From assembly GCA_964016885.1 (NCBI GenBank), contig OZ024742.1, positions 29,760,001 through 29,824,000 of the forward strand: DNA of 64,000 nucleotides, in the 5' to 3' direction. The position numbers and the translations under genes are program-made. Below are positions 13,410 through 63,574 of the stretch, one piece after another. How positions within the stretch are numbered: the stretch's first letter is position 1; each line of letters starts with the position of its first letter. Under the pieces are notes generated by a model. That model was not told the origin of the DNA. It did no database searches and saw nothing but the letters and a program-made list of their open reading frames with translations. This stretch comes from Eledone cirrhosa (Eukaryota).

Positions 13410-13655
<246 letters not shown>

Positions 13656-13671
13656 AACAATACAATATAAT

Positions 13672-13735
13672 TACCTCATTACCAGAGGTTTCCCGAATAA
13701 GACGAATACAAGAAACGTCCCCATTCGTTCGTCAG
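13672..13735 (-). ncRNA. Hammerhead ribozyme core (left inverted arm)
   Basis: CTGACGA-stem II-GAAA-CCTC-TGGTAAT-GAGG-TA; stem I weak. Confidence 0.65.
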
Positions 13736-14548
13736 ACAAGGCAGTTTAAAACATAGTGAAATATTTGAAAAATCTCCTCAAGAAAGGCAAAAGTTTAACG
13801 GGCAAAAAAAATATATAAATAAAAGTAATGCAAGAGATATATAAAAATAAAATAAGGAAATATAGTTAGCGTGTGTATAAATGTGTGTATATGCACCTAC
13901 AAATGTACATATGTGTGTATGTACAAATGCATGTGAATAGTGAAAAGATGTGTGCGTAAGTAAATACATGAGGGCAAGCATATCAGTGTATGTGTGACCA
14001 CAAATACGTATATAATATATGTTGAAAAAAGAAATTGTAAGATAATAGAGTTAACGTACATACTGACTCTGGGACTAAGGATTGAAATATATACACATAC
14101 AAGTACGAAAGCACGCGTATAAAGACACACACACGCGCAACCACATACATGTATGTGATATATACAGGGATGGGAGTGTATCAGTCAAAGCAGTGTCAGG
14201 CTGAAGGTCGATACATATCAAAATATAAAATATGAAAATGAAAAAATTAAAAAATATATGAGAATAAAAAAATTAAATCTAAGAGAAAGTAAGGGGGAGG
14301 GGTTATCAATTATAAAGTAACACTAGAAAAATTGAAAACATACAGAGGTTCGTACACACACATATATATATATAAAAATATATATATAAATACGTACAGA
14401 CAAAAGCACATACATGCGTACATACATACAAAAGCGCGCATACATACACACGAAGAACATATATATACATACATTTACATCTAATCACACGCACGCACGC
14501 GACCATATATATACATATATATATACACATATATATATATATATATAA

Positions 14549-14579
<31 letters not shown>

Positions 14580-14918
14580 TATATATAAGTATCTAAAAAA
14601 CATAGATATAAAAACACACATACACACACACATATACACATACACGCGCACATACGAATGCATTCGTATACATATACAAACACGTATACACACATATGCA
14701 CATTTACACGCATACATGCAATATAAAAACCAGCCGTATGAATAAATGAGTACAAATTATACGCAAGTAAACATACATAAAATCGGCTGAGGGACAACAG
14801 AATATATATTTTTATATATCTCTTGCATTACTTTTATTTATATATTTTTTTTGCCCGTTAAACTTTTGCCTTTCTTGAGGAGATTTTTCAAATATTTCAC
14901 TGTTTTAAACTGCCTTGT

Positions 14919-14982
14919 CTGACGAACGAATGGGGACGTTTCTTGTATTCGTCTTATTCGGGAAACCTCTGGTAATGAGGTA
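14919..14982 (+). ncRNA. Hammerhead ribozyme core (right inverted arm)
   Basis: CTGACGA-A.CGAATGGGGACG/CGTCTTATTCG.G-GAAA-CCTC-TGGTAAT-GAGG-TA (GUA triplet); stem I only ~2 bp. Confidence 0.65.
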
Positions 14983-15091
14983 ATTATATTGTATTGTTTA
15001 TTATACATTAAATTTAGCTCTGTAACTTACATAGAGCACTCTTCACTCCTATGACTTTTTCAATTTTCAACGGACACTTCAATACTTATAT

Positions 15092-47705: not shown

Positions 47706-47800
<95 letters not shown>

Positions 47801-48145
47801 TATTGAAATTTCCGTAGAAATGTATCTAATACCCTGTTTTTAGTTTACCTGCCAGACAGAGAATCACATCATGTCTGTGTAGTTTACAGATACACAGATA
47901 CACTAGCCCTAACACATATATTTACGCAACACTTTTTCACTATACGTACACATTTGTACATACACACGTATGTACATCTGTGAGCGTATATACATACATA
48001 TACACACACCTAACTATATTTCTTGAAAGTTTTTTATATATTTCATATGGCTATTGTAATTCCTTTGTTTATATTTATATATAATTTTTTTTGCTTTTCT
48101 TGATGAGACTTTCCAAGTATTTAGCCATGTTTTATATTGCCTCGT

Positions 48146-48211
48146 CTGACGAACGAATGAAGACGTTTCTTTCGTATTCGCCTCATTCGGGAAACCTCTG
48201 GTAATGAGGTA
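48146..48211 (+). ncRNA. Hammerhead core (family of 14919-14982) at the end of a related unit 47800-48238
   Basis: CTGACGA-ACGAATGAAGACG...CGCCTCATTCGG-GAAA-CCTC-TGGTAAT-GAGG-TA; followed by (TA)n. Confidence 0.65.
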
Positions 48212-48272
48212 ATTATATTGTATTGATTTTTATACATTATATATATATATATATATATATTTAATATAGAAA

Positions 48273-48323
48273 GGCTTCTACAGGAATAGAACTGTTTCAT
48301 TCGGGAGAAATCATCAGGAAGCC
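48273..48323 (-). ncRNA. Type I hammerhead ribozyme forming almost the whole ~70-bp island in (TA)n
   Basis: GGCTTC-CTGATGA-T.TTC-TCCC-GAA.T-GAAA-CAG-TTCTATTC-CTG-TA-GAAGCC. Confidence 0.8.
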
Positions 48324-48326
48324 GCC

Positions 48327-48378
<52 letters not shown>

Positions 48379-48420
48379 GTAATCTGAGTAGTAGAGCGAT
48401 ATCTTTTGGGCAGTTATTAT

Positions 48421-48580
48421 ATTGGCAGTATTGGTAGAGGGTCGGACGCCATGCTTTGACGCATAGAGTTACGGCCCTTGCCATTCTGAATTCAAATCCC
48501 GCCGAGGTTAACTTTGCCTTTCATCCTTACGGGGTCGATAAAATAAAGTACTAGTAATCTACTGTGCCAAATGTAGAAAC

Positions 48581-54580: not shown

Positions 54581-57168
54581 AAGTGTTATTCCATAGTGGA
54601 AGTATTACAAATTTTCTAATTTGCGGAATGATACGATCAATAATCTTTTTGCTGATATTGCCGATATCAGATTTTGATGGGCATATCAGTCTAATAGATG
54701 GGTTCGAGTTAAAGTCAGATGTATGGTCTTTCAGGTTGAAGTGCGGGCTTTTAGGCGTGAAAGGCTCAGTCCTATCTTCAATCTGGAGCTTTTTTACTAT
54801 ATCACGTGATATGTTGTTCAAGGATGTTAGTGCGGTGGTATTTGCTTTCTTATAGTTTTTTCTAAGTTCTTTTTATATGACCTGGTTATATTTATCGATA
54901 TCCATGTGGTACAAGTTACCAGTTTTGTCAGAATGGACATGGACCTTGTTTGAATTTTTCAGTTGTAGAAGGGTAGAGTCCAATCCCTTTTGGAATTCTG
55001 ATTTGTGTTTTCTGATAACACTTCCAACTAAGGGATAACACTTCCCAAGTTATTGAATGGTTCACTAGCATTGGGAATAAAAACTCAGCTTCATTCATTC
55101 AATTCGACATCGATTCTTACTATTCTTCGATTTCTCTAATTCTTTTAAACAAAGCACTGATCTTTGCCAGAAATAGATCGGATTTATCTACTGAGGAAAT
55201 CAACATCATAACTCACGTTAGAAAAACCTTACTAAACTTCCAAGAAGAATACTGGACAAGAAACACATATAACAAGCTATTCGATATTACGATCGGATCC
55301 ATGGACTCTGCTCAAGTTACAGACCTCGTTGGACTATTTCTCCTCTATAACATTCATGACTCTTTTCCCCACCTCAAAGGTGGTCTTTATCGGGATGATT
55401 GTCTATTGTTATCTAACAATCTTAGCAATTCCAATATAGAGGAAAACAAAAAACAAATTAGAAAATTCCTCAAAGACTATTACAGCCTTAGCATCACTTT
55501 TGAAAACACTTCAAAAGTAGCTAATTTCCTTGACGTTACCTTAGACCTCTCTACGAATACTTATCAACCTTACCACAAACCTAACCAGAATCTACATTAT
55601 GTACATTCACGATCTAACCACCCTGGCTCTATACTCAAGAACTTAGTATATAACATATCTCTTAGACTTTCTAAATTATCTTCCAATGAAATTATATTTT
55701 ATAATAATGCACCCTTCTACAACGAGGCCTTAACTAGAAGTGGATATAAAGAGAAAAATCTCATATATCCCCAAAACTACTATGGACCAAAACATAAAAC
55801 CTAGCAAAAACTACGAACACCAAAAAATACCATTGAAACAAATACCTAAAGTGGTTATTCCTATTACACCAAACAACCGAAAAACCACAACAACTATTAC
55901 TACACGATCTATGACCAATGTTATCAACCCACATATGAATACCAAGCACTCAAAATCTCATAGTCTACCCAAAAATAACACCAAATACAACCACGGTAGT
56001 TTACCAAATTCCACAAATACGGATACTAACCATAGGAATTCTTCTAGAACACAACACATTAATATAAGTGGTAATAAGAACTTAACTAAAAACCGCAAAA
56101 GAAACATAACATGGTTCAACGCACCCTTCAACCTGTAAACTATTGGACAAATCCCAAAAAAAATTTTTGAAATTCTACATAAACATTTTCCACCAAACCA
56201 CAGATACCACCAAATATTTAACAAATATACTGTTAAATTCTCATACTCTACATCAAGCAATCTCCAGCAAAAAATAAGCAACTACAACATTTATAAACTT
56301 TAAAATAATATGACCACACCACCACAACATAATTTAAATAGGACTGCAACCTTTTAAAAAGGCAAATAATACAATCCTTCAACCTAGAAAACACAACCAC
56401 CCAAATCACCAACACGAAAACAACAGAACACAAAATCACAATACAACCCTAGCACCAAACCACCCACAAAGCAACCTTCATTCTCCTGCTATCATTAATT
56501 ACAATAGGAATAGCTCAAGTATTGATGAGATTAGTATGGCTGTAATTGCAGAAATAGAAGCATTTGCCCCTTAAATGGCAACTGTTTGATTAATAATGTA
56601 ATATATAAATGCACTGTGTCTACTACAGACTCCAACAAAACATATATAGGATCTACATCAAACACATTTAGGAAGAGATTTTACGCAGACTCTAGTAGTT
56701 TCAACAATACTAAACTAGCTAACACCACATATTTAGCTGAAGCGGTAAATAATTATAAAAAGAAAAAAAATAGATTTCAAGTTATCGTGGAACACCATTC
56801 TACAAATAACTCCATATCTTGGGAACAGGAGGGAATGTAGATTATGTTCAGGGGAGATCTTGGAAATTACTAAATCTAAGGACGATTTATTAAATAAAGG
56901 ACATAGTTTGTAATCACAGTATACGAAGAACATTTAAATACTATAAACCTAATTAAATATTCTAAATAGCAACTCACTATAATTCTATATAGAGTGACAT
57001 TTATTACTACCCCTTTCCCCTAATTATATGCATTCATGGTTATTTTTTACCTTTTAATGTTTTAGCTTCCATAGGTTTATGCGTTAATGACTAAAGGCAA
57101 CAAGGTACACAACCACCCGTAATTGCATGAATAAATATATATCTATGTATGATATGGAAATATATTTA

Positions 57169-59839: not shown

Positions 59840-60320
59840 GAAGAATAAAAAAATAAATAAAAATAAACTAGGTGGGACGGAATTAAAGGGACCCTTATAC
59901 GAGGTATAAGTGCGTGTATCGTACGGTGACGGGTCAACAAAGGGGGGGGGGGGGGGGGGGCCAAAATACTAAAGAGACTGCCACGAAATAATAAAGGTTT
60001 CTACCCCAATCACAGGGCCAGCAACCACCCAGAGCAAGAAAGTAAACTAGTACGAGAATATAATTCAGGGTCCCGCAAAAAAATACTCGTGCTAACTCTA
60101 AGGGTACCGCCACGAAACAAAATGTCTTATACAAGCTACATGAAAGATCGTACAAAGTAAAAGTAAAGAACGGAAAATTAATACAGAACCACCCCCCCCC
60201 GGGGGGGGGGGGGAGAAATACTGGATAAACGAGAAATTAAAGCAAAGATGCCACTAAGAAATATAGAAGGCACGGAAAAAAGGGACAGCGGTCGGAGAAG
60301 GGGGCAAGTATCCGAAGTCT

Positions 60321-60520
60321 NNNNNNNNNNNNNNNNNNNNNNNNNNNNNNNNNNNNNNNNNNNNNNNNNNNNNNNNNNNNNNNNNNNNNNNNNNNNNNNN
60401 NNNNNNNNNNNNNNNNNNNNNNNNNNNNNNNNNNNNNNNNNNNNNNNNNNNNNNNNNNNNNNNNNNNNNNNNNNNNNNNNNNNNNNNNNNNNNNNNNNNN
60501 NNNNNNNNNNNNNNNNNNNN
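60321..60520. other. Assembly gap (200 N)
   Basis: Run of N. Confidence 1.
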
Positions 60521-61915
60521 ACTATGGACCAAAATATAAAACCTAGTAAAATCTACAAACACCAAAAAATACCATTGAAACAAATACCTAAAGTGGTTAT
60601 TCCTATTACACCAAACAACCGAAACACCACAACAACTATTACTACACGATCTATGACCAATGTTATCAACCCACATATGAATACCAAGCACTCAAAATCT
60701 CATAGTCTACCCAAAAATAACACCAAATACAACCACGGTAGTTTACCAAATTCCACAAATAGGGATACTAACCATAGGAATTCTTCTAGAACACAGCACA
60801 TTAATATAAGTGGTAATAAGAACTTAACTAAAAACCGCAAAAGAAACATAACATGGTTCAACGCACCCTTCAACCTGTAAACTATTGGACAAATCCCAAA
60901 AAAATTTTTTGAAATTCTACATAAACATTTTCCACCAAACCACAGATACCACCAAATATTTAACAAATATACTGTTAAATTCTCATACTCTACATCAAAC
61001 AATCTCCAGCAAAAAATAAGCAACTACAACATTTATAAATTTTAAAATAATATGACCACACCACCACAACATAATTTAAATAGGACTGCACCTTTAAAAG
61101 AACAAATAATACAATTCTTCAACCTGGAAAACACAACCACCCAAATCACCAACACGAAAACAACATAATACAAAATCACAATACAACCCTAGCACTAAAC
61201 CACCCACAAACCAACCTTCATTCTCCCGCTAATATTAATTACAATAGGAATAGCTTAAGGATTAATGAGAAAGGATTAATGAGAAAGGTACCCCCAACAA
61301 CCATCTTACGTATGGTTGTAATTGCAGAAATAGAAGCATTTGCCCCTTAAATGGCAACTGTTTGATTAATAATGTAATATATAAATGCACTGTGTCTACT
61401 ACTGACTCCAACAAAACATATATAGCATATACATCGAACACATTTAAGAAAAGATTTTACGCACACTCTAGTCGTTTTAAGAATACTAAACTAGTTAACA
61501 CCACATCTTTAGCTGAAGCAGTAAATAACTATAAAAAGAAAAAATAGATTTCAAGCTATCATGGAATACCATTCTGCAAAGAACTCCATATCTTGGGAAC
61601 AGGAAAGAATGCAGGTTATGTTCAGGTGAGATCTTGGAAATTACTAAATCTAAGGACGATTTATTGAATAAAAGACAGGAACTGATTATAGTTTGTAATC
61701 ACCGTATACGAAAAAATTATAGCAACTCACTATAATTCTATGTAGCGTAACATTTGTTAGTACCCCTTTCCCCTAATTATACGCATTCATGCTTATTTCT
61801 TACCTTTTAATGTTTTAGCTTCCTTAGATTTATGAGTTAATGACTAGGGACAACAAGGTACACAACCACCCGTAATTGCATGAGTAAATATGTATCTATG
61901 TATGTATGATATGGG
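60521..61915 (+). mobile_element. Second copy of the PLE linker/GIY-YIG region (paralogous to ~55779-57160)
   Basis: Colinear near-identity with scattered substitutions and indels; shares the stop after WFNAPFNL. Confidence 0.9.
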
Positions 61916-62108: not shown

Positions 62109-62802
62109 AAGAATTCATATCTAGTAACATATATATACATACAGATGCATATCAAAGCTAGCAAATATATAGGTTTTGTCTTAATAACAGTGTGGTTCAA
62201 TGCATGGGGTTGCAGAACAATAATATAAGAGACGTAAATTATAAAATTAACTTACTTACTAAAATATCACTTCCAACTAATTAGTTTCTGGAATGGAGTA
62301 AATATATTTTCCGAAGAATAATATGGAGAAGCATTCCGTCGTCAGGAAAGTCTATTCTCATGTAAGTTTCCAGGCAAAGCGAGGACACTGGAAACTTATT
62401 AAAAAATAATTCAGTGGATAGGAAATAGCGAAGCGTGGACTGAATTCCAAGCCATTGAGAAAATCACTGCCTCTACGTCTGTGGCAAATTCAAAAAGAAT
62501 CGAACACGTGACATCGAGGTCAATCAGTGGAAAGTGGTTTGCTAATAAGACAGCGGCCTGCCTACAACCGTAGCAGCAGTCATGGCCAATATTGCTCGAC
62601 AAATAATTTGGAGATAATAATAAAGAATTCATATCTAGTAACATATATATACGTCTCTTATATTATTGTTCTGCAACCCCATGCATTGAACCACACTGTT
62701 ATTAAGACAAAACCTATATATTTGCTAGCATTGATATGCATCTGTATGTATATATATGTTACTAGATATGAATTCTTTATTATTATCTCCAAATTATTTG
62801 TC
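62103..62802 (-). mobile_element. HHR-bearing pseudo-LTR with nested inverted copies
   Basis: 62103-62235 and 62598-62650 are both reverse complements of parts of 62650-62802; abuts (TA)n. Confidence 0.75.
62269..62351 (-). ncRNA. Type I hammerhead ribozyme, palindromic stem III
   Basis: ACTTTC-CTGACGA-C.GGAAT...ATTCC.A-GAAA-CTAATTAG-TT-GGAAGT. Confidence 0.75.
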
Positions 62803-63574
62803 AGCATAATCTGTAAAGTAAGCCCCCATAATAACTGTAAAACTAGAAACATAGTATATAGCATAAGATGTACTGAGGGACAATGTAAAGATAAAAATAT
62901 AGTGTACCGAGGTGAGACAGCTCGTAGCATAGGTGAACGATTAAATGAACACTGGCGAGAACTCCAAGATAGAAAAGACTCATCAGTTCTCCACCAGCAT
63001 GCTAAAATAGAACATAAGGGCAAATTAGAGAACATAGGAATAAAAATAAAATATACACACAGAAAAGACGCAATGTTTAGACAAATCACAGAGGCAATAA
63101 ACATAAATGAACTCCAACCAAAATTAAATAGAAAACATGAATGGAATAGCAACATCACAACTTACAATTAAGAACAAAATGAAAACACACACACACATAG
63201 AACAAACAACCAACCAGTAACATGTAAATAAACAAATAAAAACACACAGACACCCGGATGTAACACTTGCGCAAACTAAGCACACAACACACACAAAAGT
63301 AAGATGGCGTAGGACAGAACAAAGGAGAGGCACAAAACAAAGAAAAGAATCCCCAGTCACTTATGAGGTCACAGAATGTGTGACGAAAGAACTTTGATAA
63401 TATATGAACAACCATCCGGTTGTGGAACCAACCAACCAACGGGAAATTTATAATAAATTGAATTGAAAGCAACTGGTGCGTGTGTTTCTTATTGGCAACA
63501 TGACCCTCCCAAAGTATAACAATATCGGTTTCAACACACGTTTTCAGATAAAGAATCTTGCTAAACAAATTCAG

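What the first reader, a model, noticed from the sequence alone, without database searches (positions are those of the whole stretch)
48261..48330. A ~70-bp insertion in (TA)n that is essentially only a hammerhead ribozyme
Seen: a 51-nt HHR with perfect 6-bp stem I, looped stem III and GUA site, with about 10 nt of flank each side before TA repeats. Inference: either a minimal mobile ribozyme unit or an extreme PLE truncation. If the region is intronic, it could cleave host pre-mRNA.
Basis: partly seen in the sequence, partly recalled or inferred. Interest (0 to 1): 0.75.

Follow-up and report, generated by a model that had tools for sequence, protein, structure and literature searches.

The report
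Penelope stub starting at its hammerhead
This 70-base insert in a TA repeat is a stub of a Penelope-type jumping gene carrying a predicted self-cutting RNA motif; about seven in ten sampled relatives start right at that motif, likely because the copied RNA begins there, so it is a common leftover and probably not a mobile ribozyme of its own.

Summary
The hammerhead is real: type I, minus strand, 48323-48273. It is the leader (pLTR) of a Hydra-clade Penelope-like element (PLE). In longer copies the same sequence runs on into a PLE ORF about 130 nt downstream, and a young sister subfamily has an intact 713-aa RT/GIY-YIG ORF. There are 980 exact copies of the core. The 5' ends are not a smooth truncation series: 71 of 100 start within 3 nt of stem I. 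But short and long copies share variants, junctions differ per copy, and short copies lack the promoter. A TATA box lies exactly 30 nt upstream in both subfamilies, many stubs gain an extra G, and a neighbouring PLE without that TATA shows no pile-up (0 of 30). Likely mechanism: reverse transcription starts just past the ribozyme and runs off the capped RNA start. No ends lie at the cleavage site, so uncut RNA was copied. This copy has lost the loop III palindrome. No host gene was found and cleavage is untested. The scan has noted this pile-up in other genomes; the TATA, extra G and control family came from my own calls.

The parts
48273..48323 (-). Type I hammerhead motif, 51 nt (stem I 48323-48318 with 48278-48273; core CUGAUGA 48317-48311; stem II 48310-48299 with U10.1-U11.1; GAAA 48298-48295; stem III 48295-48280; GUA site, predicted cut between 48279 and 48278)
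   Evidence: Sequence; descriptor scan with shuffles; compensatory pairs in stem I
48286..48286 (-). G-to-U change in loop III that removes the family's CUAG palindrome
   Evidence: Alignment; predicted self-duplex -4.7 versus -12.8 kcal/mol
48324..48328 (-). 5' flank ACGGC; best read as the last bases of the pLTR upstream of stem I (family variant with one base lost), so this copy starts about 6 nt before the family's usual start; a short slippage duplication is not excluded
   Evidence: Match to L003/L018 from query base 3
48261..48272 (-). 3' flank ending at the family's short 3' end, an AT-rich stretch that merges with (TA)n; inferred start site of reverse transcription
   Evidence: 55 of 100 copies end 1-23 nt after stem I, 34 end at 76-87 nt
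48330..48375 (.). (TA)n target tract on the 5' side
48238..48260 (.). (TA)n tract on the 3' side, shared with the neighbouring PLE
47797..48237 (+). Neighbouring PLE-type insertion of another family, tail to tail with the focal stub; inverted tail piece at 47797-47819
   Evidence: 481 exact core matches
48136..48213 (+).

Best explanation
This is a 70-base stub of the leader of a Hydra-clade Penelope-like retrotransposon, likely made when the element's enzyme nicked a TA repeat and copied only the first 65-70 bases around the start of an uncut element RNA. Shown: the sequence continues in longer copies into a PLE ORF; copies sit in (TA)n; they have two preferred 3' ends; and their 5' ends pile up at the first base of the ribozyme. 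Inferred: a TATA promoter in the pLTR starts a capped RNA at the first base of stem I; reverse transcription primes internally about 12-20 or about 85 nt past the ribozyme and runs off the cap, often adding a G; two such run-off copies are usually joined head to head, or one is joined straight to the TA target. Such stubs lack the promoter and would be dead on arrival. This particular copy starts about 6 nt earlier than most, so its template was probably a read-through RNA. It is predicted to cut poorly or not at all.
For: 980 exact 34-mer copies. The tail runs on into an ORF starting MLTKLDLDISLKNIP about 130 nt after the ribozyme. 6 of 12 long loci have an intact 713-aa ORF, and L222 is a whole pLTR-ORF-pLTR unit. 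Hydra-clade motifs are present. 5' ends: 71 of 100 at 0..+3 against 3 at -1..-20, 23 at -21..-300 and 3 at -307; 17.8 versus 0.085 ends per base. Inverted partner arms, mostly not chosen by the pattern: 60 of 63 end at or inside stem I's start. Young sister: 33 of 81 at -1..+2. Tail-anchored sample: 31 of 70 at -2..+8 and none at the +45 cut site. TATAAATA at exactly -30 in both subfamilies despite different spacers; absent at -30 in the neighbour family, which has 0 of 30 ends at stem I. The base before stem I is G in 30 of 38 copies starting at 0, where the long copies have C.
Against: No RNA data, so the transcription start is inferred. The first pattern began at +3, which bounds that bin on one side (one search was run to remove this bias and overlaps the sample). 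Most extra Gs could also come from microhomology with the inverted arm; the cleaner count (9 of 11) was sorted by hand. There is only one control family. 7 of 16 young copies starting at +1 have T before them, not G. The focal copy itself starts at about -6 and has no inverted arm, so it is a minority type. Intact ORFs were seen only in the sister subfamily; the ORF copies of the focal subfamily that I translated are broken. All samples come from the first part of one contig.
Confidence: 0.7

Rival explanations
1. The stub is a PLE fragment, but ends pile up because the reverse transcriptase stalls or falls off at the folded or dimerised ribozyme, or because the new DNA snaps back on itself through stem I.
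For: The pile-up coincides with a structural boundary; the family loop III is self-complementary (-12.8 kcal/mol); L027 is joined exactly through stem I.
Against: The enzyme meets the 3' strand of stem I first, and no ends pile up there. 40 of 81 young copies read more than 100 nt past the motif. The neighbour family with a stronger 10-bp stem I shows 0 of 30. Stalling does not explain the TATA spacing or the extra G.
Confidence: 0.12
2. The short form is a self-propagating non-autonomous element (a minimal ribozyme retroposon) copied from its own short master by the PLE enzyme.
For: Short copies outnumber long ones in the older subfamily (71 of 100) and have sharp ends; they keep the tail that probably recruits the enzyme; related tandem retrozymes exist.
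Against: The same three diagnostic variants occur in short and long copies; junctions vary copy by copy; no promoter is carried; no tandem array of the short unit was seen in the 100 sampled copies beyond one local duplication (L096).
Confidence: 0.1
3. The pile-up marks a splice acceptor: the template is a spliced RNA whose intron ends at stem I, as reported for Drosophila virilis Penelope.
For: Cervera and de la Pena 2014 report the intron end at the 5' end of helix I. Both subfamilies have CAG near the boundary, and the young one has a T-rich tract before it.
Against: No constant upstream exon is joined to short copies. The AG would put the boundary at -2 in the old and +2 in the young subfamily, whereas ends sit at 0 and 0/+1.
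Confidence: 0.05
4. The stub has been kept because it cuts a host pre-mRNA.
For: The core bases are intact; with the neighbour's motif on the other strand, a transcript in either direction would carry one hammerhead.
Against: No host exon found among long ORFs; lost palindrome and a competing fold; no sign of conservation beyond one local duplicate.
Confidence: 0.03

Closest known systems
Hydra-clade Penelope-like elements (Craig et al. 2021, PMC8557442; passages, section 11 and supplement rows read)
   Same: C-terminal GIY-YIG, RWK-like and DKT motifs, CxCX5C linker, CxxC and CxH near the end, hammerhead in the pLTR, (TA)n targets. The listed Hydra-1_aJap and Hydra-1_cRog ribozymes also have U on both sides at the base of stem II.
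   Different: A different family from the published Hydra-1_Obim (compared by eye only); a 2-kb microsatellite 3' UTR makes the unit about 5 kb rather than under 3 kb; stem III has an 8-nt loop rather than 1-2 nt; the pile-up of 5' ends is not described in the parts I read.
[quoted passage not shown]
   Same: Type I motif in the pLTR; most copies are single and attributed to truncated PLEs; palindromic loop III suggests dimers; low activity.
   Different: A 4-bp stem III could form in a monomer; stem II is short with a U-U instead of a long stem with G10.1-C11.1.
Anolis Poseidon element PAc (Frangieh et al. 2024, PMC11167929; parts 1-2 of 4 read)
   Same: Two internal start sites of reverse transcription downstream of the ribozyme, AT-rich targets, both strands extended, uncut RNA used as template.
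   Different: Other clade; there the ORF starts inside the ribozyme, here about 130 nt after it; here the 3' ends merge with TA-like sequence, which hints at pairing with the target.
Animal non-LTR retrozymes (Li, Clavereau and Pollet 2026, 10.64898/2026.07.22.740005; part 1 of 5 read)
   Same: Non-coding, type I hammerhead, PLE-derived.
   Different: Retrozymes are tandem units cut by two ribozymes; this is a single promoterless stub.
Minus-strand strong-stop DNA of LTR elements (recalled) and the cap-derived extra G of full-length L1 insertions (PMC11702581, one passage)
   Same: A short copy that runs from a start site near the RNA 5' end to the cap; extra 5' G.
   Different: Primed by nicked target DNA, not tRNA, and inserted as such; no strand transfer was shown.

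Membership tests
Type I hammerhead ribozyme | Core CUGANGA, GAAA, UH in order with stem I closing the ends | tested here: met
Type I hammerhead ribozyme | Three helices with compensatory change | tested here: met
   Two compensatory pairs in stem I; stems II and III invariant in 7 copies
Type I hammerhead ribozyme | Paired 10.1-11.1 at the base of stem II | tested here: not met
   U-U mismatch; reported in natural hammerheads (Perreault 2011, passage) and seen in published Hydra motifs
Type I hammerhead ribozyme | Self-cleavage | not testable with these tools
   Hammerhead fold predicted at P about 0.04; no RNA holder listed
Penelope-like element, endonuclease-bearing | Single ORF with RT and GIY-YIG flanked by pLTRs | tested here: met
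   713-aa ORF with YRDD motif; GIY-YIG Pfam hit weak (E 0.005, below cut-off); L222 has both pLTRs. Intact only in the sister subfamily
Penelope-like element, endonuclease-bearing | Inverted 5' copy and optional tail | tested here: met
   Inverted arm in 63 of 100 (one false call); two 3' ends about 70 nt apart. The focal copy has neither arm nor long tail
Hydra clade of PLEs | RWK, DKT, CxCX5C linker, CxxC and CxH motifs, (TA)n targets | tested here: met
   RWR, DKT, CNCLNKEAC, CDLC, CMH against the description
Hydra clade of PLEs | Placement in the RT tree | not tested
   No tree built; likeness to supplement sequences judged by eye
Non-LTR retrozyme | Tandem units, each with a hammerhead | tested here: not met
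   Single copy here; the nearby duplicate is part of a duplicated block
Self-propagating non-autonomous element | Own fixed ends and own diagnostic variants | tested here: not met
   Variants shared with long copies; variable junctions

The most novel reading that the evidence does not exclude
These PLEs start their RNA exactly at the ribozyme and make a strong-stop-like first copy: reverse transcription primes just past the ribozyme and runs to the cap. The ribozyme's palindromic loop pairs two RNAs, so that both target strands are extended and joined head to head, and productive transposition needs this short copy to jump to the 3' pLTR. The thousands of ribozyme-sized stubs would be failed strand transfers, and the hammerhead an RNA-pairing leader more than a cutter.
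Probability: 0.25. Interest if true: 0.7.

Novelty: new member of a known kind. Interest (0 to 1): 0.36.

Why it matters
The single insertion matters little: it is one of about a thousand near-identical leftovers. The family pattern matters more. How PLEs make their head-to-head insertions and what their hammerhead is for are open questions (stated in PMC8557442 and PMC11167929). Here the ends of dead copies appear to map the RNA start to the ribozyme's first base, with a TATA box at the right distance and a cap-like G, and they show that uncut RNA is what gets inserted. A young subfamily with intact ORFs makes this directly testable. It also warns that ribozyme-only inserts in animal genomes can arise without being mobile units.

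Tried and rejected
Rfam at gathering scores: no match in the window. RNA runs: no RNA holder listed. Laying four contig sets on 47810-48580 was uninformative because 48226-48387 was skipped as repeat. An empty site was sought with the unique right flank: only the focal place and its duplicate 48.5 kb away, both filled. A GIY-YIG search of the genome gave many PLE endonucleases but did not lead to this family; the partner was found by following tails instead. I first read the 445-nt long form as a separate non-coding element; rejected, since in the sister subfamily the corresponding sequence is the unique part of the pLTR behind a microsatellite-rich 3' UTR. I first took the minimum-energy fold for the hammerhead fold; it is a slipped form. 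A template made by ribozyme cleavage was rejected: no ends at +45 in 70 tail-anchored copies (one at +41) or 63 inverted arms (two at +43). ORFs were listed for 1-16 kb and 36-64 kb only; Pfam named transposon domains in 3 of 7 tested and nothing in 4. Paper searches for a report of the pile-up with TATA or cap G found none; Arkhipova 2013 notes a putative TATA box in a rotifer pLTR (passages) and Schostak 2008 a TATA-less internal promoter in D. virilis (passages). Subscription papers and bioRxiv supplements were not searchable; Lunse et al. 2017 on dimeric PLE hammerheads is recalled only.

Full report
Observation. The minus strand of 48323-48273 is a 51-nt type I hammerhead motif with a perfect 6-bp stem I, intact core, 4-bp stem III with an 8-nt loop and a GUA site. 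It has 5-7 nt on its 5' side and 12 nt on its 3' side before TA runs. A descriptor finds 6 such motifs in the window and 2 in 20 shuffled windows. Across 7 hand-picked subfamily copies, stem I shows two compensatory pairs while the loop of stem II varies. Folding energy is no evidence on its own (z -1.04): the best fold pairs stem II's UUC with the catalytic GAA, and the hammerhead fold lies 1 kcal/mol higher with probability about 0.04. Stem II rests on a U-U mismatch, which occurs in natural hammerheads (PMC3088659, passage) and in published Hydra-clade motifs. Rfam has no hit.

Family. The 3.0-Gb genome holds 980 exact matches to a 34-base core. One is a duplicate of this very locus 48.5 kb away with the same flanks, so no empty site is at hand. 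Longer copies extend 307 nt upstream and about 85 nt downstream. In some, the tail continues into an ORF about 130 nt after the ribozyme. A young sister subfamily (3552 exact core matches) has an intact 713-aa ORF in 6 of 12 long loci fetched, followed by about 2 kb of microsatellite-rich 3' UTR and a second pLTR; L222 shows the whole unit. The protein has a YRDD RT motif, a weak GIY-YIG hit, many 39-53% identical unnamed relatives, and the marks that Craig et al. 2021 give for the Hydra clade: RWR for RWK, DKT, CxCX5C linker, CxxC and CxH near the end, and (TA)n targets. The ORF copies of the focal subfamily that I translated are broken. The host looks like an octopus from a flanking SINE; this is recalled, not tested.

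I took the first 100 matches on contig C1 in position order. 71 begin at 0 to +3 of stem I, 3 at -1 to -20, 23 at -21 to -300 and 3 at -307. The pattern itself began at +3, so I checked in three ways. Inverted partner arms (63 of 100, one false; a few are also counted copies) end at or inside the start of stem I in 60 of 63, 31 of them at +3 to +7. In the young subfamily 33 of 81 begin at -1 to +2 and 40 run more than 100 nt upstream; this set includes four members of one tandem array. In 70 copies anchored on the tail, partly the same loci, 31 begin at -2 to +8, 9 at +9 to +40, one at +41, two past +50, 27 upstream, and none at the cut site at +45. So the distribution is neither continuous nor fixed: a sharp wall on top of a thin spread. 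3' ends fall in two groups, 55 of 100 within 23 nt of stem I and 34 at 76-87 nt, like the two internal start sites shown for the Anolis element (PMC11167929).

Why the wall. TATAAATA begins exactly 30 nt before stem I in both subfamilies although the spacers differ. The base before stem I is G in 30 of 38 old copies that start at 0, whereas long copies have C. Many of these Gs could come from the inverted arm; among junctions where they cannot, I counted 9 G in 11 by hand (p 2e-5 against 0.2). An extra G from the cap is reported for full-length L1 insertions (PMC11702581, passage). The neighbouring PLE family, with a stronger stem I and no TATA at -30, has 0 of 30 ends at stem I. The simplest reading is that a capped RNA starts at the ribozyme's first base. 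Against it: no RNA data, a single control family, T rather than G before 7 of 16 young copies that start at +1, and samples from one contig only.

Not a unit of its own. The three variants just after stem I occur in both short and long copies, junctions differ from copy to copy, and short copies have lost the promoter. Stubs much like the focal one, with TA close on both sides and little else, were 4 of 100.

The focal copy. It ends at the short 3' end, has no inverted arm, and starts about 6 nt before the wall if ACGGC is read as the family variant less one base; a slippage duplication is the alternative. Its loop III has lost the CUAG palindrome, which lowers the predicted two-molecule pairing from -12.8 to -4.7 kcal/mol. 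A second PLE with its own hammerhead (48136-48213, plus strand) abuts it tail to tail across 23 nt of TA. No host exon was found among long ORFs in 1-16 kb and 36-64 kb; small exons would be missed, so intronic position is open.

Mechanism, shown and inferred. Shown: identity as a PLE leader, TA targets, two 3' ends, wall at stem I, head-to-head joins, whole ribozyme retained. Inferred: promoter use, capping, internal priming, run-off, joining of two copies, inactivity of this copy.

Novelty. PLE stubs with hammerheads, inverted copies and tails are known (PMC4209133, PMC8557442, PMC3846280). I found no paper describing the wall with a TATA box and extra G (searches; open papers only). Earlier AI notes of this scan report the same wall in shark, ray and fish genomes; I saw them after forming my reading, and they are not independent proof. 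The insertion is ordinary; the family pattern is a useful, testable clue to PLE replication. Interest 0.36.

Noticed in passing
window 47797-48237 (+), 14800-15080 (+), 13650-13870 (-): A second PLE-type family with a type I hammerhead (10-bp stem I, long stem II); the two copies near 14 kb form a head-to-head pair; at least 40 genomic copies are 100% identical over 116 nt, so it is young. Its ORF was not sought.
   Followed up: partly
window 62345 (-) and 54239 (-): Two further type I hammerhead motifs of other families; the first lies upstream of a GIY-YIG-like ORF fragment at 62512-63171 on the other strand.
   Followed up: no
L221:4260-6700, L222, L229: The young Hydra-clade element carries about 2 kb of TA/TG microsatellite as its own 3' UTR, so it spreads the kind of repeat it targets.
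   Followed up: partly
G000:C1:83679786-83691710: Twelve tandem copies of a unit of about 1.08 kb, each with the young hammerhead core; could be a retrozyme-like array or a local tandem duplication.
   Followed up: no
L150 and L117, just upstream of stem I: The start of the ribozyme is joined directly behind a piece of leader from just before the ATG, as if the copy jumped from the RNA start to another RNA; a possible route to partial tandems.
   Followed up: partly
window 48261-48330 and G000:C3:29856813: The locus lies in a block duplicated 48.5 kb downstream with few differences.
   Followed up: partly
many loci: More than a dozen other hammerhead families turn up by chance in the fetched flanks; several have a GGTATG (splice-donor-like) motif 5-40 nt upstream of stem I.
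   Followed up: no
window 55019-55804 (+) and 60182-60880 (+): Fragments of another Hydra-like PLE ORF.
   Followed up: no
L016, L031, L050, L052: Another short TA-inserting repeat recurs beside, and once joined directly to, this family.
   Followed up: no
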